A DNA stretch of 9,198 nucleotides from Naegleria gruberi (Eukaryota): the NCBI GenBank assembly GCA_000004985.1, contig GG739044.1; one strand, given 5' to 3'. Both the position numbers and the translations under genes were made by a program. The notes below the pieces were generated by a model that was given only the letters and a program-made list of their open reading frames with translations, had not been told where the DNA came from and did not search any database. The first letter of the stretch is position 1. The number at the start of each line of letters is the position of its first letter. Positions 959-7,952 of the stretch are shown in pieces.

Positions 959-1212
959 TGTTTTTTGAAAAGCTACAAATGTCAAGTGTGAGAAATTTAC
1001 ACGTCACAGACAACCTTGCCTTGATTACCAAAATTGCAAAACGTGATTTTTAACAGGATTAATAATTTTGGCGGGAAATCAGAGCATCTTGTTATTTTGC
1101 CAATGAAGTTTCTCACTTGTATGGAATTTGGATTGGAGTGAGAATGGAGTGGCCAATGTACACGAAGTCATCCGATCATACAAAATTATTACTGTTTATA
1201 TTTGGTGAATGC

Positions 1213-3422: not shown

Positions 3423-4262
3423 TTACCACAAGGCATCAGCGTTTGGATCTTCATTTGTAACTTTCTTCGTTCCATCTGTTTTGATAAATCTAAAGGTGAG
3501 ACTCACTCTTCTGTAATTTTCATCCCTTATTAATGTTTCACCAGTGCTTGGGACGTAGACTTGTTTCATATGGGTAATTCCATGTTTCCATTTGAATCTG
3601 GAATCGTCTTTCATTACAAATAAACTTCTTGGTTCGAGTAGAATCTTAGTTTGAATATTCTCATTGGATGCCAATTTCAGAACCATGTAAATTGGTTTGT
3701 TGAGTGAAACCAGTGTGATGATATCTCCAAACGGACCAGGATTATCAACATGACTACTAATTCCCTGTGTTCCAATATATTCATTCACAAGACATTGTGT
3801 TGGATTTCCATAATCAGTCTTGTACAGTCCATCCCGTTCCACAAGTCTTTCAATAAGCCAATCAAATTCCTTCAAATCCAAATGTTGATAATTGGAAGAG
3901 CTCTCATTAACTGGTTGCATTGTTGGAAGATTATGTCTTGTATGATAATAGGTATAGCCATACATTTGTGTTCTTCTACAAATTTCATGGCACCATGCCT
4001 TAGAGTCAATTAATTTCATAATTCTCTCCTCTTCCTCTTCGGAAATGTAGTTTTTAATGTAGATTGCTCCAGGAACAACAACATTTGGATTGGTAGAAAA
4101 TAATTCCTTACATCCTGTTAGGGAGTTGTATTCAACCATGTGTGGCTCAACTGTTGTGCTAATACTATTTGATGGAGTTGAAGAAGTGCTCATTGATGAT
4201 GAATCATCACCTCCACAACAACACTTTTCTGTGGATGATAAAGTACTTTCGGTTGTTGCCAT
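3423..4262 (-). CDS. AlkB-homolog 2-oxoglutarate/Fe(II)-dependent dioxygenase (ALKBH6/ALKBH4-like)
   Basis: Motifs match the AlkB-homolog fold. VPGAIYIKNYISEEEEERIMKLID matches the conserved N-terminal ALKBH6 block. QCLVNEYIGTQGISSHVDN carries the HxD iron ligands. LLEPRSLFVMKDDSRFKWKHGI carries the distal His. RRVSLTFRFI is the RxS...R 2OG-binding strand. There is an A-rich region in front of the ATG. Confidence 0.85.
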   Translation of the reverse strand: MATTESTLSSTEKCCCGGDDSSSMSTSSTPSNSISTTVEPHMVEYNSLTGCKELFSTNPNVVVPGAIYIKNYISEEEEERIMKLIDSKAWCHEICRRTQMYGYTYYHTRHNLPTMQPVNESSSNYQHLDLKEFDWLIERLVERDGLYKTDYGNPTQCLVNEYIGTQGISSHVDNPGPFGDIITLVSLNKPIYMVLKLASNENIQTKILLEPRSLFVMKDDSRFKWKHGITHMKQVYVPSTGETLIRDENYRRVSLTFRFIKTDGTKKVTNEDPNADALW

Positions 4263-4636
4263 TTTTTTTCCTATTCGGGTAATTTTTAAACCACATGCTA
4301 AAGCTTTAATTTTGAGGAAGGTGCATTTTCAAAATACTTTGAAGATAAATTGAGAATGAAAAAATTGTGTTATTTCATATTATTTTAGTACACTTTGGTA
4401 TTTATTTGTTTCCTTCACAAAGGTAACAATTATGAAATGAGTTGGTTGAAATGGAGGTATATTCATCAAAACCTCTCAATTCTTCTGCTATTCTAATTTC
4501 CTCTTCTCAGATTGACCAATAAATGACCTCTATCAAAAAAAAGTTAGAGTTTGAATTAATTACGCGTCTTGGTTTTAGGAAAGAAGAACTGAAAGGACAT
4601 TTTTCCACAAATGCCTTAATATTACTGTGAAATGAA

Positions 4637-4717
4637 GCAGACTTGGCCGAGTGGTTAAGGCGACAGACTTGAAATCTGTTGGGGAAACCTTCGTAGGTTC
4701 GAATCCTGCAGTCTGCG
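4637..4717 (+). tRNA. tRNA-Ser (anticodon TGA), class II with long variable arm, no intron
   Basis: Acceptor stem GCAGACT pairs with AGTCTGC and is followed by discriminator G. A box TGGCCGAGTGG. Anticodon arm ACAGA-CTTGAAA-TCTGT gives anticodon UGA. Variable arm GGGGAAACCTTC. T arm GTAGG-TTCGAAT-CCTGC (B box GGTTCGAATCC). Near-identical in architecture to known eukaryotic cytosolic tRNA-Ser(UGA). Confidence 0.92.
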
Positions 4718-4724
4718 TCTGAAA

Positions 4725-4734
4725 TTTTGATTTT
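4725..4734 (+). terminator. Pol III T-tract terminator for tRNA-Ser(TGA)
   Basis: TTTTGATTTT begins 8 nt after the tRNA 3' end. Confidence 0.6.
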
Positions 4735-4770
4735 ATGATATTCTTTCAATGGTTATGTTTTCATATCCCG

Positions 4771-4785
4771 ATCCTGCAGTCTGTG
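4771..4785 (+). repeat. Orphan copy of the tRNA-Ser 3' end (T-loop 3' half plus acceptor 3' strand)
   Basis: atcctgcagtctgtg matches the tRNA 3' end atcctgcagtctgcg (4704..4718) at 14 of 15 positions, about 55 nt downstream of the intact gene. No 5' half is present. Confidence 0.5.
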
Positions 4786-4992
4786 TATGAATCTTTTGAT
4801 TGAGAAGTACTTATTTTTCTTAATATGTTGGACTTTAAATGGTAGGGAGGATTCACCCAATAAAGGACATTGAGAATTGTTTTTTGGCAAGAAACAAACA
4901 ACTGGTAAGTAGGTCTAATGCAAATAGAATTTTTGCTTATGTTGCAAGAATATTCCTGAACGAATCCCTTAATACATACACAGAGGGGAGAA

Positions 4993-5073
4993 GCGGTCTT
5001 GACCGAGTGGTTAAGGTGATTGACTAGAAATCAATTGGGGCGACCCGCACAGGTTCGAATCCTGTAGACCGCG
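4993..5073 (+). tRNA. tRNA-Ser (anticodon AGA), class II, no intron
   Basis: Acceptor stem GCGGTCT pairs with AGACCGC and is followed by discriminator G. Anticodon arm ATTGA-CTAGAAA-TCAAT gives anticodon AGA. Variable arm GGGGCGACCCGC. T arm ACAGG-TTCGAAT-CCTGT. Very close to canonical eukaryotic tRNA-Ser(AGA). Confidence 0.92.
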
Positions 5074-5077
5074 AATA

Positions 5078-5082
5078 TTTTT
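5078..5082 (+). terminator. Pol III T-tract terminator for tRNA-Ser(AGA)
   Basis: TTTTT begins 5 nt after the tRNA 3' end. Confidence 0.6.
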
Positions 5083-5135
5083 AGGTAAAAGGAGGACAAG
5101 GTCTGATATTCCAGAACAAGTTAGTTGATTTTATG

Positions 5136-5951
5136 TTAAAACTCAAATAATACAACGACAGGAAGGTGATCTGAAATACCAGAAGCATCGGAATCAATCC
5201 ATGATTGTTTGAGATATGGCTCCAATTCAGTATTACTAATGACATAGTCAATTCGAGTGTCGAGTCTTGAAGAACCAGTTCCTTTCTCTCCCTCAAATAT
5301 GATATCTGGATTTAAAACTTTCCAACAATCCACGAGTNNNNNNNNNNNNNNNNNNNNNNNNNNNNNNNNNNNNNNNNNNNNNNNNNNNNNNNNNNNNNNN
5401 NNNNNNNNNNNNNNNNNNNNNNNNNNNNNNNNNNNNNNNNNNNNNNNNNNNNNNNNNNNNNNNNNNNNNNNNNNNNNNNNNNNNNNNNNNNNNNNNNNNN
5501 NNNNNNNNNNNNNNNNNNNNNNNNNNNNNNNNNNNNNNNNNNNNNNNNNNNNNNNNNNNNNNNNNNNNNNNNNNNTACCAAGTACTGATCTTTCACCTCT
5601 TCCAACATCTTTCTTTTCCTGAAATAGAATTGGATATTTACTCAGAATAATATTCGACTCATAATTAGTGGGTCCAGACCGATATTGATAGGGCCGAGCC
5701 ACTTCCACCTCCTCAGGTAATGATGAATTCAATGCATAAACCAAATCTCTCAGAGGATGAGAATACTCGCTATCTTCATAAACTTCATTCAGGCAGACAA
5801 TGTCGAAATTGTTTTTATGCAAATATTTGTATAATTCGGTGAGGTTACTCCTTCCGTATGCAGTGGAGAAGTGATGAACATTGAAGGAACAACAGGAGAG
5901 TAAATTGTTGGATTCTGGAGGTGGTGGAGATGAAGTTTGATCGAGAGACAT
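5136..5951 (-). CDS. Endonuclease/exonuclease/phosphatase (EEP, DNase I-like fold) family hydrolase; the gene is interrupted by an assembly gap
   Basis: N-terminal block FNVHHFS...NFDIVCLNEV has the catalytic N/E signature of the EEP fold. C-terminal GISDHLPVVVLFEF is the classic SDH motif. The middle of the gene is replaced by N's. The in-frame read-through of X residues is an artefact of the gap length. Stop TAA at 5138..5136. The ATG at 5951 is preceded by an A-rich stretch. Confidence 0.8.
   Translation of the reverse strand: MSLDQTSSPPPPESNNLLSCCSFNVHHFSTAYGRSNLTELYKYLHKNNFDIVCLNEVYEDSEYSHPLRDLVYALNSSLPEEVEVARPYQYRSGPTNYESNIILSKYPILFQEKKDVGRGERSVLGXXXXXXXXXXXXXXXXXXXXXXXXXXXXXXXXXXXXXXXXXXXXXXXXXXXXXXXXXXXXXXXXXXXXXXXXXXXXXXXXLVDCWKVLNPDIIFEGEKGTGSSRLDTRIDYVISNTELEPYLKQSWIDSDASGISDHLPVVVLFEF
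5338..5575. other. Assembly gap (238 N) inside the EEP gene
   Basis: A run of n characters. Confidence 1.
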
Positions 5952-6048
5952 TTTTTTGATAGAAGAAATCGGAACATGGTTGAATGTAATAATATTAGAG
6001 TGTATTAGTACGTGGTTTACAAATTAGTATTTAAATATTGTTAAATAT

Positions 6049-6160
6049 TAGACTTCCGGAAAAAGTTTTGCTAAAAGTCGACTTTTTTAAGGTACTTTCA
6101 CGCTAATTTGCAAAAAGGCGCCTAAAAGGTGCCTAAAAGGTGCCTTTTTTACCTAAAAAC
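6049..6160. repeat. Left arm of an inverted-repeat pair, carrying palindromes and an 11-bp tandem array
   Basis: The TAGACTTCCGGAAAAG terminus contains the palindrome CTTCCGGAAG. AAAAGTCGACTTTT is itself palindromic. AAAAAGGCGCC is followed by about three tandem GGTGCCTAAAA-type units (6112..6160). Its inverted partner is at 6861..6904. Confidence 0.55.
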
Positions 6161-6366
6161 TACTTGAAACACATCCAAAGTTTGTTCAAGAAAATCTTGA
6201 GCAACTTTCAAACTGTTTTCAAACAATTCCTCAAGAATGATTAATTATTTCTCAACCAAATTCTCAAAACGCTCAAGTATTTGCTGAAAAAACCCCAAGG
6301 GCCCTCAAACTTCTGAACTCACTCTCTTTCTTAACTATATCCTTTTCCAAAAAATCCACCAATTCC

Positions 6367-6660
6367 TTAAGAGATCCAAGGTTTTTGAATGTCACCATCT
6401 CGGGTCACTGTAGTTTTGATGGATTTTTTTACATCAATCACGAAATCTTTCGAAAGCTCTGGTCTTTTGGGCTCCTCAACTTTTCTTGGCATGATGATTG
6501 TTTTCTTTTTGATAAGGTTCAGGTTTTTTCTCTTTCTGGGTGGAGTGATGTTCAAATCAGATCTCTTCCTCTTCTGGATTTTTTCTTGTTTCACACTTTT
6601 TTCTTGTTCCTGTTTCATGCTTAATTCAGAATATGGTGTTTCATTAAGATTTTCTTCCAC
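6367..6660 (-). CDS. Small Lys/Arg-rich basic protein of 97 aa with NLS-like KRKR and PPRKRK stretches; function unknown
   Basis: An ORF whose frame is open upstream to 6768 with no earlier Met. It has an acidic N-terminus followed by a strongly basic middle. The overlapping plus-strand ORFs are Phe/Leu-rich mirror images of its Lys/Glu codons and look less protein-like. It lies inside the inverted-repeat-bounded segment. Confidence 0.45.
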   Translation of the reverse strand: MEENLNETPYSELSMKQEQEKSVKQEKIQKRKRSDLNITPPRKRKNLNLIKKKTIIMPRKVEEPKRPELSKDFVIDVKKSIKTTVTRDGDIQKPWIS

Positions 6661-6860
6661 TTCCTCAACATCTTCCGTTCCATCAACAATAGAATCAGCA
6701 AGATTAGGGAACCTTTCAACTTCAGCAAATGCAGTAAAGAAAAGGTTGACATCAGGAAAAAGAAAGTTTCAATAAATATGCAGGAAAGGTTTAAACATTT
6801 CTTGAATTATGCTCAAACAAATTTCAAAAATTGCTCAAACATTTTTCAAACCACTTTTTT

Positions 6861-6904
6861 AAAAAGGCGCCTTTTTATTTCTTTTTGACTTTTCCGGAAG
6901 TCTA
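6861..6904. repeat. Right arm of the inverted-repeat pair
   Basis: The perfect 16-nt palindrome AAAAAGGCGCCTTTTT is followed by CTTTTCCGGAAGTCTA. The reverse complement TAGACTTCCGGAAAAG equals the left terminus at 6049..6064. Flanking TTAAATATT-type sequence also mirrors imperfectly. Confidence 0.55.
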
Positions 6905-6965
6905 TTTGTAATCTTTAATATTTAATCAATAATAATTAATAATATTTAATATTATTTAAAAAAAA

Positions 6966-7952
6966 ATGGCAATCACTAAAGTCATCATACCTATTGCAGG
7001 TCACGGCACGAGAATGTTTCCTGCATCAAAAGTCATGCCAAAGGCTCTCTTTCCAATCCTTGATCCGAAAGATAAACTTTGCAAGCCTATTTTATTAATA
7101 ATTATTGAACATGCAGTGGAGGCGCTACTTGCAGAACAACCACAAATCGGATGGGATGATATTCAAGTTTGTATTGTCATGCAGGAAAATCAGAGGAGTA
7201 TTATAGAGGAATTTTTCAATGCGCCTTGTGCTTTTTCTATGGAAGGAAAAGCAAAGGAAATTCAAGATTCGATGAGAATGATTGAGAAAATTTCAAAAAC
7301 TCTGACTTTTATTGTACAGGAGGAACAACTTGGATTTGGACATGCATTGTTGTGTTGTGCTGATAAATTCATTAAGGAGAATGAGGCATTTATTGTCTTG
7401 TTGGGAGATCATATCTATACATCGAGGACTCAAAGTGGAAAAAGTTGTTTGCAGTATGCTGTTAGAGCTTTTAACAAGTTCAATAAGGCTATTGTCACAT
7501 TGGATACCATTTCAGAAAAACATACGTATGCAAATGGTGTGCTAAAGATTGGACAAGTATTGGAGAAGGAGAGTGAGGTTGTTTATACGTCCATTCTGAC
7601 TACTATTGAGAAACCGAACAAGATTCAATGTGAAAATCACAATCTCTATATAACAGAGGAGGAGTTACAAATGCTTGAAGTGGAGAGAACATGTAAGAAT
7701 GAAAATGATGTTGTCTGCTATTTTGGCATTGACATTTTAACCTATGAAGTGTTTACCCATTTGAGAGAAAATTGGAAATGTGGAAAACTTCATAATGGTG
7801 AACTTAATTTAAGAGAAGCTATGTGTCCCACTATTGAACGTGGAGATATGGTTGGTGTTTTTGTTAGAGATGCTTCACGGCACGATACAGGATTACCATT
7901 TGAGTATTGGCAATCACTACAAGATTTTTACAATAATATCAAGAATAAATAG
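6966..7952 (+). CDS. galU: UTP-glucose-1-phosphate uridylyltransferase of the bacterial GalU type (NTP_transferase fold)
   Basis: Collinear with E. coli GalU over its whole length. [29 protein letters not shown] aligns with [61 protein letters not shown] aligns with [39 protein letters not shown] aligns with [46 protein letters not shown] aligns with [38 protein letters not shown]. The start is AAAAAAAATGG. Stop TAG at 7950..7952. Confidence 0.9.
   Translation: [328 protein letters not shown]

What the first reader, a model, noticed from the sequence alone, without database searches (positions are those of the whole stretch)
6049..6904. An ~860-bp segment bounded by imperfect inverted repeats made of palindromes, enclosing a small basic ORF and sitting immediately upstream of the GalU-like gene
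The left end TAGACTTCCGGAAAAG (6049..6064) and the right end CTTTTCCGGAAGTCTA (6889..6904) are exact reverse complements over 16 nt. Each end carries the palindrome CTTCCGGAAG. Each end also has a subterminal AAAAAGGCGCC palindrome (6112..6122 and 6861..6876), but at different spacings of about 62 versus about 27 nt, which implies indels. The flanking TTAAATATT-type sequence also mirrors imperfectly. Inside the segment lie a Lys-rich 97-aa ORF and clusters of TCAAAC motifs. The architecture fits a degenerate MITE or foldback-type non-autonomous DNA element. Alternatively it may be a pair of duplicated promoter modules serving the EEP gene, the small ORF and GalU. Either reading is unannotated structure.
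Basis: seen in the sequence. Interest (0 to 1): 0.6.

Follow-up and report, generated by a model that had tools for sequence, protein, structure and literature searches.

The report
Small inverted-repeat transposon in Naegleria gruberi
The 856-bp stretch between two divergent genes of the amoeba Naegleria gruberi is most likely a small non-autonomous "cut-and-paste" DNA transposon, because a 99.5% identical copy ending at the same inverted repeats sits next to an unrelated gene in an independent data set; this is an ordinary kind of element, but an uncommon find in a genome reported to have very few transposons.

Summary
The window is a whole 9.2-kb scaffold of Naegleria gruberi. It is probably an allelic haplotig, because its GalU protein has a 327/328-identical twin on a 695-kb scaffold.

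The inverted repeat is real but 15 nt long, not 16: TAGACTTCCGGAAAA at 6049-6063 and 6890-6904. The palindrome at each end is the 8-mer TTCCGGAA, not CTTCCGGAAG. Alone, the 15-mer is not significant across the window (35/200 shuffles). Combined with the subterminal AAAAG(G/T)CG(C/A)C palindromes it is (0/200).

The decisive result is a Logan contig (L004, run ERR1078381):
- It starts exactly at the right terminus.
- It matches window 6904->6046 at 99.5% identity without gaps.
- Three nt past the left terminus it continues into unrelated DNA, the 3' end of an eIF2D-like gene that is 100% identical to N. gruberi NAEGRDRAFT_58788 over the shared 38 aa.

So the IR-bounded unit exists in at least two genomic contexts.

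Its interior is a frameshifted coding remnant of about 200 codons, including an intact 83-aa ATG ORF. Codon usage is host-like and no homologue was found anywhere. Orthologous loci in N. fowleri, another Naegleria and Willaertia lack the segment and its motifs.

Best reading: a non-autonomous TIR DNA transposon, possibly TA-flanked. Foldback and paired-promoter readings are not supported. Copy number, target-site duplication and transposase remain unknown.

The parts
6049..6904 (.). The whole element (856 bp). It would be 6051-6902 if the outermost TA on each side is a target-site duplication rather than part of the TIR.
   Evidence: L004 1-859 equals window 6904->6046 at 99.5% identity with 4 mismatches and no gaps. 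The contig starts at window 6904, and similarity ends 3 nt beyond 6049.
6049..6063 (+). Left terminal inverted repeat, TAGACTTCCGGAAAA, containing the 8-nt palindrome TTCCGGAA.
   Evidence: (pair I8).
6890..6904 (-). Right terminal inverted repeat. It is an exact reverse complement of the left one.
   Evidence: (pair I8).
6073..6086 (.). Left subterminal palindrome AAAAGTCGACTTTT. It aligns with the right-end AAAAGGCGCCTTTT when the two ends are compared.
6113..6145 (+). Three tandem 11-nt units: AAAAGGCGCCT, AAAAGGTGCCT, AAAAGGTGCCT. The first and last can pair as a 12-nt stem.
   Evidence: (family D1 with spacing 11, 11; pair I21).
6861..6876 (.). Right subterminal perfect 16-nt palindrome AAAAAGGCGCCTTTTT.
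6367..6618 (-). Intact 83-aa ATG ORF, Lys/Arg-rich, with KRKR...RKRK stretches (coordinates include the stop codon). It is identical in both copies. It lies inside a 133-codon stop-to-stop open frame, 6370-6768.
   Evidence: Protein P0027 is 100% identical and is the only hit among 1.84 billion representative proteins. In-frame codon log-odds is 0.22 bits/codon against -0.20 off-frame.
6152..6398 (-). Two further stretches in the other two minus-strand frames: MVTFKNLGSLKELVDFLEK... at 6276-6398, and ILERFENLVEK*LIILEELFENSLKVAQDFLEQTLDVFQVVFR at 6152-6289. Both have host-like codon usage. I read them as the frameshifted 3' part of the same decayed coding sequence.
   Evidence: 0.20 and 0.18 bits/codon in frame. 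The same frameshifts are present in L004, since the alignment has no gaps.
6208..6310 (+). Left cluster of TCAAAC hexamers, starting at 6208, 6219 and 6305. On the minus strand they are the (L/V)FE codon strings of the decayed ORF.
6813..6851 (+). Right cluster of TCAAAC hexamers, starting at 6813, 6835 and 6846. It has the same orientation as the left cluster, so the two are a direct repeat and not part of the inverted repeat.
   Evidence: (D6: 6202-6228 versus 6818-6844, 74%).
5136..5951 (-). Flanking gene of the endonuclease/exonuclease/phosphatase family, interrupted by an assembly gap at 5338-5575. Its ATG is 97 nt from the left terminus. It is not part of the element.
6966..7952 (+). Flanking GalU-type UTP-glucose-1-phosphate uridylyltransferase gene (NAEGRDRAFT_54772). 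Its ATG is 61 nt from the right terminus. It is not part of the element.

Best explanation
Window 6049-6904 is one copy of a small, non-autonomous DNA transposon of Naegleria gruberi with terminal inverted repeats.

Shown:
- The unit is bounded by 15-nt perfect inverted repeats, extended imperfectly by subterminal A/T-flanked CG palindromes.
- The same unit, with the same ends, occurs at 99.5% identity in a second, unrelated genomic context.
- Its interior is a frameshifted coding remnant with no detectable transposase.

Inferred:
- The element inserted into what was a divergent promoter region of about 158-160 bp between the EEP and GalU genes.
- It moves, or moved recently, by cut-and-paste. 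The transposase would be supplied in trans by an autonomous relative and would recognise the TTCCGGAA-containing termini and the repeated AAAAG(G/T)CG(C/A)C subterminal sites.
- The TA at each outer edge may be a Tc1/mariner-type target-site duplication.
- The insertion may be heterozygous and may be the reason this 9.2-kb piece was assembled apart from its allele on the 695-kb scaffold.
For: 1. Ends. The inverted repeat is exact over 15 nt. The same 'TIR + spacer + AAAAGKCGMC' layout is found at both ends and in 0 of 200 shuffles. The gapped end-to-end alignment beats 1998 of 2000 shuffles.
2. Second copy. Looking up the inner 83-aa ORF returned Logan contig L004, from run ERR1078381.
   - L004 1-859 matches window 6904->6046 at 99.5% identity without gaps. 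L004 860-1701 has no similarity to the window.
   - That flank encodes the C-terminal WH_eIF2D + SUI1 part of an eIF2D-like protein. Its first 38 aa are identical to N. gruberi NAEGRDRAFT_58788, which lies on a 362-kb scaffold. GalU lies on the 9.2-kb and 695-kb scaffolds.
   - So the flank is a different locus of the same species.
3. Contig start. L004 begins exactly at the first base of the other terminus. In a de Bruijn assembly this is expected where copies with different flanks converge (inference).
4. Interior. There is a 133-codon open frame plus two shifted continuations, all with host-like codon usage. Pfam gives no match. The only hit among 1.84 billion representative proteins is the L004 copy's own 83-aa ORF, and a word-indexed search of 5.8 billion found nothing.
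5. Relatives. Upstream of GalU, N. fowleri, a metagenomic Naegleria and Willaertia have neither the segment nor its motifs. Their intergenic spacers are 166 nt (N. fowleri) and 130 nt (Willaertia). This is close to the 158-160 nt left in the window once the element is removed.
6. Allele. GalU has a 327/328-identical twin on a 695-kb scaffold, so the window is probably an allelic haplotig.
Against: - Only two contexts are documented. One of them comes from a single 1.7-kb contig of a run whose organism label I could not read.
- The reference assembly could not be searched, so copy number is unknown. N. gruberi is reported to be very poor in transposons, at 0.28% of the genome (bioRxiv 10.64898/2026.06.24.734286).
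- No unambiguous target-site duplication exists. TA or AAT flank both copies, but neither can be separated from the repeat itself or from AT-rich background.
- No transposase or autonomous partner was found.
- L004 runs through the left terminus into its flank without a break. That is not what a simple many-copies model predicts for that end.
- The 15-nt repeat alone is within chance for a 9-kb window.
Confidence: 0.72

Rival explanations
1. Segmental duplication, rearrangement or assembly chimera. On this reading the segment is ordinary intergenic DNA, perhaps with a small orphan gene. It was either copied or translocated by a process other than transposition, or L004 is a mis-join.
For: Only one extra contig supports a second context. 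No clear target-site duplication exists, no transposase was found, and the genome is reported as TE-poor. The eIF2D gene model in the reference is truncated exactly where L004 continues, which hints at assembly trouble around that locus.
Against: Both limits of the shared sequence fall on the inverted-repeat termini, exactly at one end and within 3 nt at the other. A random breakpoint would do this about once in several hundred tries per end. A 15-nt repeat is shorter than the assembler's k-mer, so it should not cause a chimera (inference).
Confidence: 0.14
2. Paired cis-regulatory modules. The two ends would be copies of a promoter-proximal module (A/T-flanked GGCGCC or GTCGAC palindrome, then TTCCGGAAGTCTA, then a TATTTAA-like box). 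Each copy would serve one of the divergent genes, EEP and GalU, and the DNA between them would be normal spacer.
For: Both copies have the same orientation relative to the gene they face, and lie 61 and 97 nt upstream of the ATGs. Similarity continues weakly into the AT-rich gene-proximal flanks (ATATTTAA..., TAATATTATT). CCGGAAGT resembles an ETS-type core; this is from my own memory and is not a test.
Against: Any inverted-repeat element shows that 'same orientation' by construction. Similarity of the outer flanks is not significant once AT-richness is kept (107/2000). The second copy places the same terminus 32 nt downstream of a stop codon, which is not a promoter. The whole 856 bp recurs, not just the motifs. 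The motifs are absent upstream of GalU in three relatives and upstream of the other genes in the window.
Confidence: 0.06
3. Chance. On this reading the inverted repeat and the palindromes are coincidental low-complexity matches in an AT-rich intergenic region.
For: 17.5% of shuffled windows contain an exact inverted repeat of at least 15 nt. The window also holds a chance 16-nt exact direct repeat (D8).
Against: The composite end pattern occurs in 0 of 200 shuffles. The end-to-end alignment scores 2/2000. The termini coincide with the limits of an independently assembled second copy.
Confidence: 0.03

Closest known systems
MITEs and other non-autonomous class II (TIR) DNA transposons
   Same: Short terminal inverted repeats, subterminal short repeats, AT-rich sequence, no transposase, near-identical copies at unrelated gene-proximal sites (a 5' intergenic region and a 3' flank).
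   Different: At 856 bp it is at or above the usual MITE size limit. It keeps a decayed ORF of about 200 codons. High copy number is not shown: only two contexts are known. It is better described as a deletion derivative or non-autonomous element than as a classical MITE.
Tc1/mariner-pogo derived non-autonomous elements (Stowaway-like)
   Same: Both copies are flanked by TA if the element is taken as GACTTCC...GGAAGTC. The TIRs are short. The insertion sites are AT-rich.
   Different: The TA is itself part of the inverted repeat, so a duplication cannot be shown. The TIR sequence has no resemblance that I could test to known Tc1/mariner or Stowaway termini. No DDE/D transposase partner was identified.
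Foldback elements
   Same: Inverted ends that contain short repeated subunits (A/T-flanked CG palindromes, three tandem 11-mers at one end).
   Different: Foldback elements consist largely of long inverted arms. Here the arms are 15 nt exact, about 45 nt with indels, which is roughly 5% of the element per arm. The TCAAAC clusters near the two ends are direct repeats, not inverted ones.
hAT-type elements with subterminal transposase-binding hexamers (Ac/Ds-like)
   Same: A short TIR starting TAG..., and clusters of a repeated hexamer (TCAAAC) in the subterminal few hundred bases.
   Different: There is no 8-bp duplication: TTAAATAT against TTTGTAAT. The TIR TAGAC does not fit YARNG. The hexamers are better explained as codon strings ((L/V)FE) of the decayed ORF.

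Membership tests
Non-autonomous TIR (class II) DNA transposon | Terminal inverted repeats at the exact ends of the unit | tested here: met
   The 15-nt exact inverted repeat lies at 6049-6063 / 6890-6904. The limits of the second copy coincide with it.
Non-autonomous TIR (class II) DNA transposon | More than one copy, in unrelated genomic contexts | tested here: met
   The window copy lies between EEP and GalU. The L004 copy lies 32 nt 3' of an eIF2D-like gene at 99.5% identity. Only two contexts are known, and the full genome could not be searched.
Non-autonomous TIR (class II) DNA transposon | Target-site duplication flanking each copy | tested here: inconclusive
   TA (element GAC...GTC) or AAT (element AGAC...GTCT) flank the window copy and the one readable end of L004. 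Both overlap the inverted repeat or could be chance in AT-rich DNA. No empty site was available.
Non-autonomous TIR (class II) DNA transposon | No functional transposase of its own; a related autonomous element exists | tested here: inconclusive
   The absence of a transposase is shown: no Pfam match and no homologues.
MITE (strict sense) | Size below about 800 bp and no coding capacity | tested here: not met
   The element is 856 bp. It has an intact 83-aa ORF within a frameshifted coding remnant of about 200 codons.
MITE (strict sense) | High copy number (tens to thousands) | not testable with these tools
   No eukaryotic genome collection can be searched by DNA. Two JGI metagenome scans and one viral scan with end patterns gave 0 hits.
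Foldback element | Long inverted arms making up most of the element | tested here: not met
   The arms are 15 nt exact and about 45 nt with indels. The interior clusters are direct repeats (D6).
Tc1/mariner (Stowaway-like) | TA target-site duplication | tested here: inconclusive
   TA is present at all three readable junctions but cannot be distinguished from the outermost TIR bases.
hAT | 8-bp target-site duplication and YARNG termini | tested here: not met
   The flanks are TTAAATAT and TTTGTAAT, matching at 4 of 8 positions. The terminus TAGAC has C at position 5.
piggyBac / Kolobok | TTAA target-site duplication | tested here: not met
   The flanks are ...ATAT|TAGAC and GTCTA|TTTG. There is no TTAA at either junction.
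PIF/Harbinger (Tourist-like) | 3-bp TWA (TAA/TTA) duplication | tested here: not met
   The only 3-nt direct repeat at the junctions is ATT/AAT, which is not TWA.

The most novel reading that the evidence does not exclude
This is a young, possibly still mobile, lineage-specific transposon family in an otherwise nearly transposon-free model amoeboflagellate, with three features. First, its ends are built from dimer-type palindromes (TTCCGGAA, GGCGCC, GTCGAC). Second, the insertion is polymorphic between the two haplotypes of strain NEG-M. Third, its outward-facing termini now form part of the promoters of the adjacent EEP and GalU genes. Its orphan basic ORF might even be a remnant of a new kind of end-binding protein.
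Probability: 0.12. Interest if true: 0.5.

Novelty: new member of a known kind. Interest (0 to 1): 0.3.

Why it matters
Naegleria gruberi is the non-pathogenic model for the 'brain-eating' N. fowleri. Its genome is reported to be almost free of transposons (0.28%).

Two copies that differ by only 4 of 859 bases point to recent movement. From my own knowledge, stable genetic tools for Naegleria are poor. An endogenous, recently active cut-and-paste element with defined 15-nt ends could therefore be a starting point for an integration vector, once its transposase is found.

On a practical level, the element explains an unannotated 0.86-kb block that splits a compact divergent promoter. It may also explain why this 9-kb piece was assembled apart from its allele. 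Beyond that, it is an ordinary kind of genomic feature.

Tried and rejected
1. Paired-promoter reading. I favoured it at first, because both ends face their gene in the same orientation and AT-rich similarity extends outward. I rejected it after the outer-flank test (107/2000) and the discovery of L004.
2. Conservation in relatives. I fetched the GalU loci of N. fowleri (L001), a metagenomic Naegleria (L003) and Willaertia magna (L002). Neither the segment nor the motifs are there. Synteny is broken between the 2OG oxygenase gene and GalU, so no true empty site could be read.
3. Homologues of the inner ORF. The word-indexed search with a frame-corrected 222-aa conceptual protein found nothing. 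The full HMMER scan of 1.84 billion representatives found only the Logan copy. Pfam found nothing.
4. Reaching the N. gruberi reference. Look-ups of P0001, P0028, P0029 and the window's 2OG oxygenase all returned 'not on record'. The allelic site on the 695-kb scaffold and the eIF2D 3' flank on the 362-kb scaffold therefore could not be inspected.
5. Collection scans with end patterns. One viral and two JGI metagenome scans gave 0 hits.
6. Literature. No paper contains the TIR string or the run accession, and I found none describing Naegleria MITEs or promoter motifs.
7. RNA and structure. Rfam finds only the two tRNA-Ser genes. Single-strand folding of the ends is not exceptional (z = -0.7 and -1.9).
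8. TF-site resemblances for the palindromes, from memory only. An E2F reading of AAAAGGCGCCTTTT fails because the A and T runs sit on the wrong sides. An HSF or STAT reading of TTCCGGAA fails because there are only two half-sites, or the spacing is wrong. None of these was tested or relied on.

Full report
**Source of the window.** The GalU-like ORF (6966-7952) is 100% identical to a predicted protein of Naegleria gruberi whose contig is 9198 bp long. The window is therefore a complete small scaffold of the NEG-M draft assembly. It contains two runs of N, at 2442-2491 and at 5338-5575; the second lies inside the EEP gene. It also contains two tRNA-Ser genes. A second N. gruberi GalU protein, identical at 327 of 328 residues, lies on a 695,587-bp scaffold. 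The window is thus probably an allelic haplotig. Heterozygosity in N. gruberi is documented (Fritz-Laylin et al. 2010, as cited in PMC9928731).

**The observation.** The inverted repeat exists, but it is exact over 15 nt, not 16: TAGACTTCCGGAAAA at 6049-6063 and its reverse complement at 6890-6904.
- The palindrome shared by the two ends is the 8-mer TTCCGGAA. The 10-mer CTTCCGGAAG is complete at neither end.
- AAAAAGGCGCC is at 6112-6122. The full 16-nt palindrome AAAAAGGCGCCTTTTT is at 6861-6876.
- The left end also has AAAAGTCGACTTTT (6073-6086) and three tandem 11-mers AAAAGG(C/T)GCCT (6113-6145).

**Significance.**
- An exact inverted repeat of at least 15 nt appears in 35 of 200 dinucleotide shuffles of the window. 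By itself the 15-mer is not remarkable. Within the 1014-nt intergenic region the figure is 11 of 1000.
- The composite 'TIR, 5-25 nt, AAAAGKCGMC' matches both ends and none of 200 shuffles.
- A gapped alignment of the two ends beats 1998 of 2000 shuffles.
- The AT-rich similarity outside the repeat is weak, at 107/2000.

**An early lead that failed.** Both ends face the adjacent gene in the same orientation, 97 nt from the EEP ATG and 61 nt from the GalU ATG. An alignment in gene orientation suggested a shared module: palindrome, TTCCGGAAGTCTA, then a TATTTAA box. Any inverted-repeat element shows this symmetry by construction. The motifs are also absent upstream of GalU in N. fowleri, a metagenomic Naegleria and Willaertia magna, and elsewhere in the window.

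**The decisive result.** The inner minus-strand reading frame was searched against 1.84 billion representative proteins. The only hit was an 83-aa protein identical to the ATG-initiated ORF at 6367-6618. It comes from a single Logan assembly contig, L004, of 1701 bp from run ERR1078381.
- L004 positions 1-859 equal window 6904 down to 6046, with 4 mismatches and no gaps. The contig therefore begins at the very first base of the right terminus.
- The match ends 3 nt (ATA) beyond the left terminus.
- The remaining 842 nt have no similarity to the window. They encode, on the opposite strand, the C-terminal WH_eIF2D + SUI1 part of an eIF2D-like protein.
- The first 38 residues of that protein are identical to N. 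gruberi NAEGRDRAFT_58788, which lies on a 362,555-bp scaffold.

So, in N. gruberi DNA, the same 856-bp unit with the same ends lies 32 nt downstream of the eIF2D stop codon. That locus is unrelated to EEP-GalU.

A contig that starts exactly at the first shared base is what a de Bruijn assembler produces where copies with different flanks converge. This is an inference. It fits a shared sequence beginning at TA better than one beginning at AAT. L004 does not break at the other terminus, and I cannot explain that.

**Interior of the element.** On the minus strand there is a 133-codon stop-to-stop frame (6370-6768) that contains the 83-aa ORF. Two stretches follow in the other two frames, at 6276-6398 and 6152-6289.
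- All three have codon usage like the window's genes: 0.22, 0.20 and 0.18 bits per codon in frame, and negative off-frame. The five reference genes score 0.25-0.33, although they were scored against their own table.
- I read this as one frameshifted coding remnant of about 200 codons. The same frameshifts are present in L004.
- It has no Pfam match and no homologue.
- The TCAAAC clusters (6 of the 7 in the window, all on one strand) are the (L/V)FE codon strings of this remnant. They form a direct repeat, not an inverted one (D6).

**Junctions.** The window reads ...AAATAT|TAGAC...GTCTA|TTTGTAATC. L004 reads |TAGAC...GTCTA|ATAAAATTTT.
- The only duplications compatible with these junctions are TA (element GAC...GTC) or AAT (element AGAC...GTCT).
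- Patterns of 8 bp (hAT), TTAA (piggyBac) and TWA (PIF/Harbinger) are not met.
- Because TA is part of the inverted repeat, the duplication cannot be proven without an empty site.
- Removing the element leaves 158-160 nt between the two ATGs. This is similar to the GalU upstream spacers of N. fowleri (166 nt) and Willaertia (130 nt).

**Interpretation.** The best-supported reading is a non-autonomous TIR DNA transposon (confidence about 0.72). It would be mobilised in trans by a transposase that recognises the termini and the subterminal palindromic sites.

Shown:
- the ends;
- the second context;
- the lack of a transposase;
- the decayed ORF.

Inferred:
- cut-and-paste movement;
- the TA duplication;
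- heterozygosity of the insertion.

Rivals:
- a non-transpositional duplication, or a chimeric contig (0.14);
- paired promoter modules (0.06);
- chance (0.03).

**Limits.**
- The N. gruberi reference genome could not be read with the tools. Look-ups of four of its proteins were 'not on record'. Copy number, the allelic site and an autonomous partner therefore remain untested.
- Scans of viral and JGI metagenome contigs with end patterns found nothing.
- No paper mentions the sequence or the run.
- I could not check Repbase or Dfam, so the family may already be catalogued.

**Novelty and interest.** This is a new member of a known kind. Interest is modest (0.3). N. gruberi is reported to have only 0.28% transposon content. 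Two copies differing at 4 of 859 positions imply recent activity, which could matter for building genetic tools in Naegleria. The feature itself is conventional.

Noticed in passing
window 6966-7952, whole window: The window's GalU protein (NAEGRDRAFT_54772) has a 327/328-identical twin (NAEGRDRAFT_64268) on a 695,587-bp scaffold. The 9.2-kb scaffold therefore looks like an allelic haplotig, not a separate locus.
   Followed up: partly
L004 889-1701 (minus strand): The contig encodes an uninterrupted eIF2D C-terminus (WH_eIF2D + SUI1). The reference gene model NAEGRDRAFT_58788 (425 aa) is identical up to ...KYLAARE and then ends in six unrelated residues. The reference model or assembly is probably truncated there.
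   Followed up: partly
window 1067-1078: TTTGGCGGGAAA lies about 110 nt upstream of the ATG (about position 958, minus strand) of the secreted repeat protein that I judged NHL-like by eye. From memory it is a textbook E2F-type site.
   Followed up: no
window 4771-4796: A 26-nt copy (85% identical) of the 3' end and trailer of tRNA-Ser(UGA) (4703-4728) lies 68 nt downstream of that tRNA. It looks like a partial tRNA duplication (D3).
   Followed up: no
window 4256-4269 and 6959-6972: The 2OG-Fe(II) oxygenase and GalU genes share an identical 14-nt start context, AAAAAAAATGGCAA (I11). It may reflect a preferred A-rich translation-start context.
   Followed up: no
window 3423-7952 versus L001 5499-11014: The 2OG-Fe(II) oxygenase and GalU genes are neighbours in both N. 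gruberi and N. fowleri, but the genes between them differ. N. gruberi has two tRNA-Ser genes plus EEP. N. fowleri has a 417-aa ORF plus a tRNA 2'-phosphotransferase. In a metagenomic Naegleria, a relative of the 417-aa ORF abuts GalU directly.
   Followed up: partly
window 6966-7952: The uridylyltransferase belongs to the NTP_transferase (GalU/GtaB) family. Homologues in Naegleria, Willaertia and Acrasis score 45-67% identity, followed by unnamed metagenome proteins at about 45%. This is compatible with an old acquisition in Heterolobosea. No phylogeny was made.
   Followed up: no
window 5338-5575 and 2442-2491: These are assembly gaps (runs of N). The first removes the middle of the EEP gene and produces the apparent GC dip at 5200-5800 in composition profiles.
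   Followed up: yes
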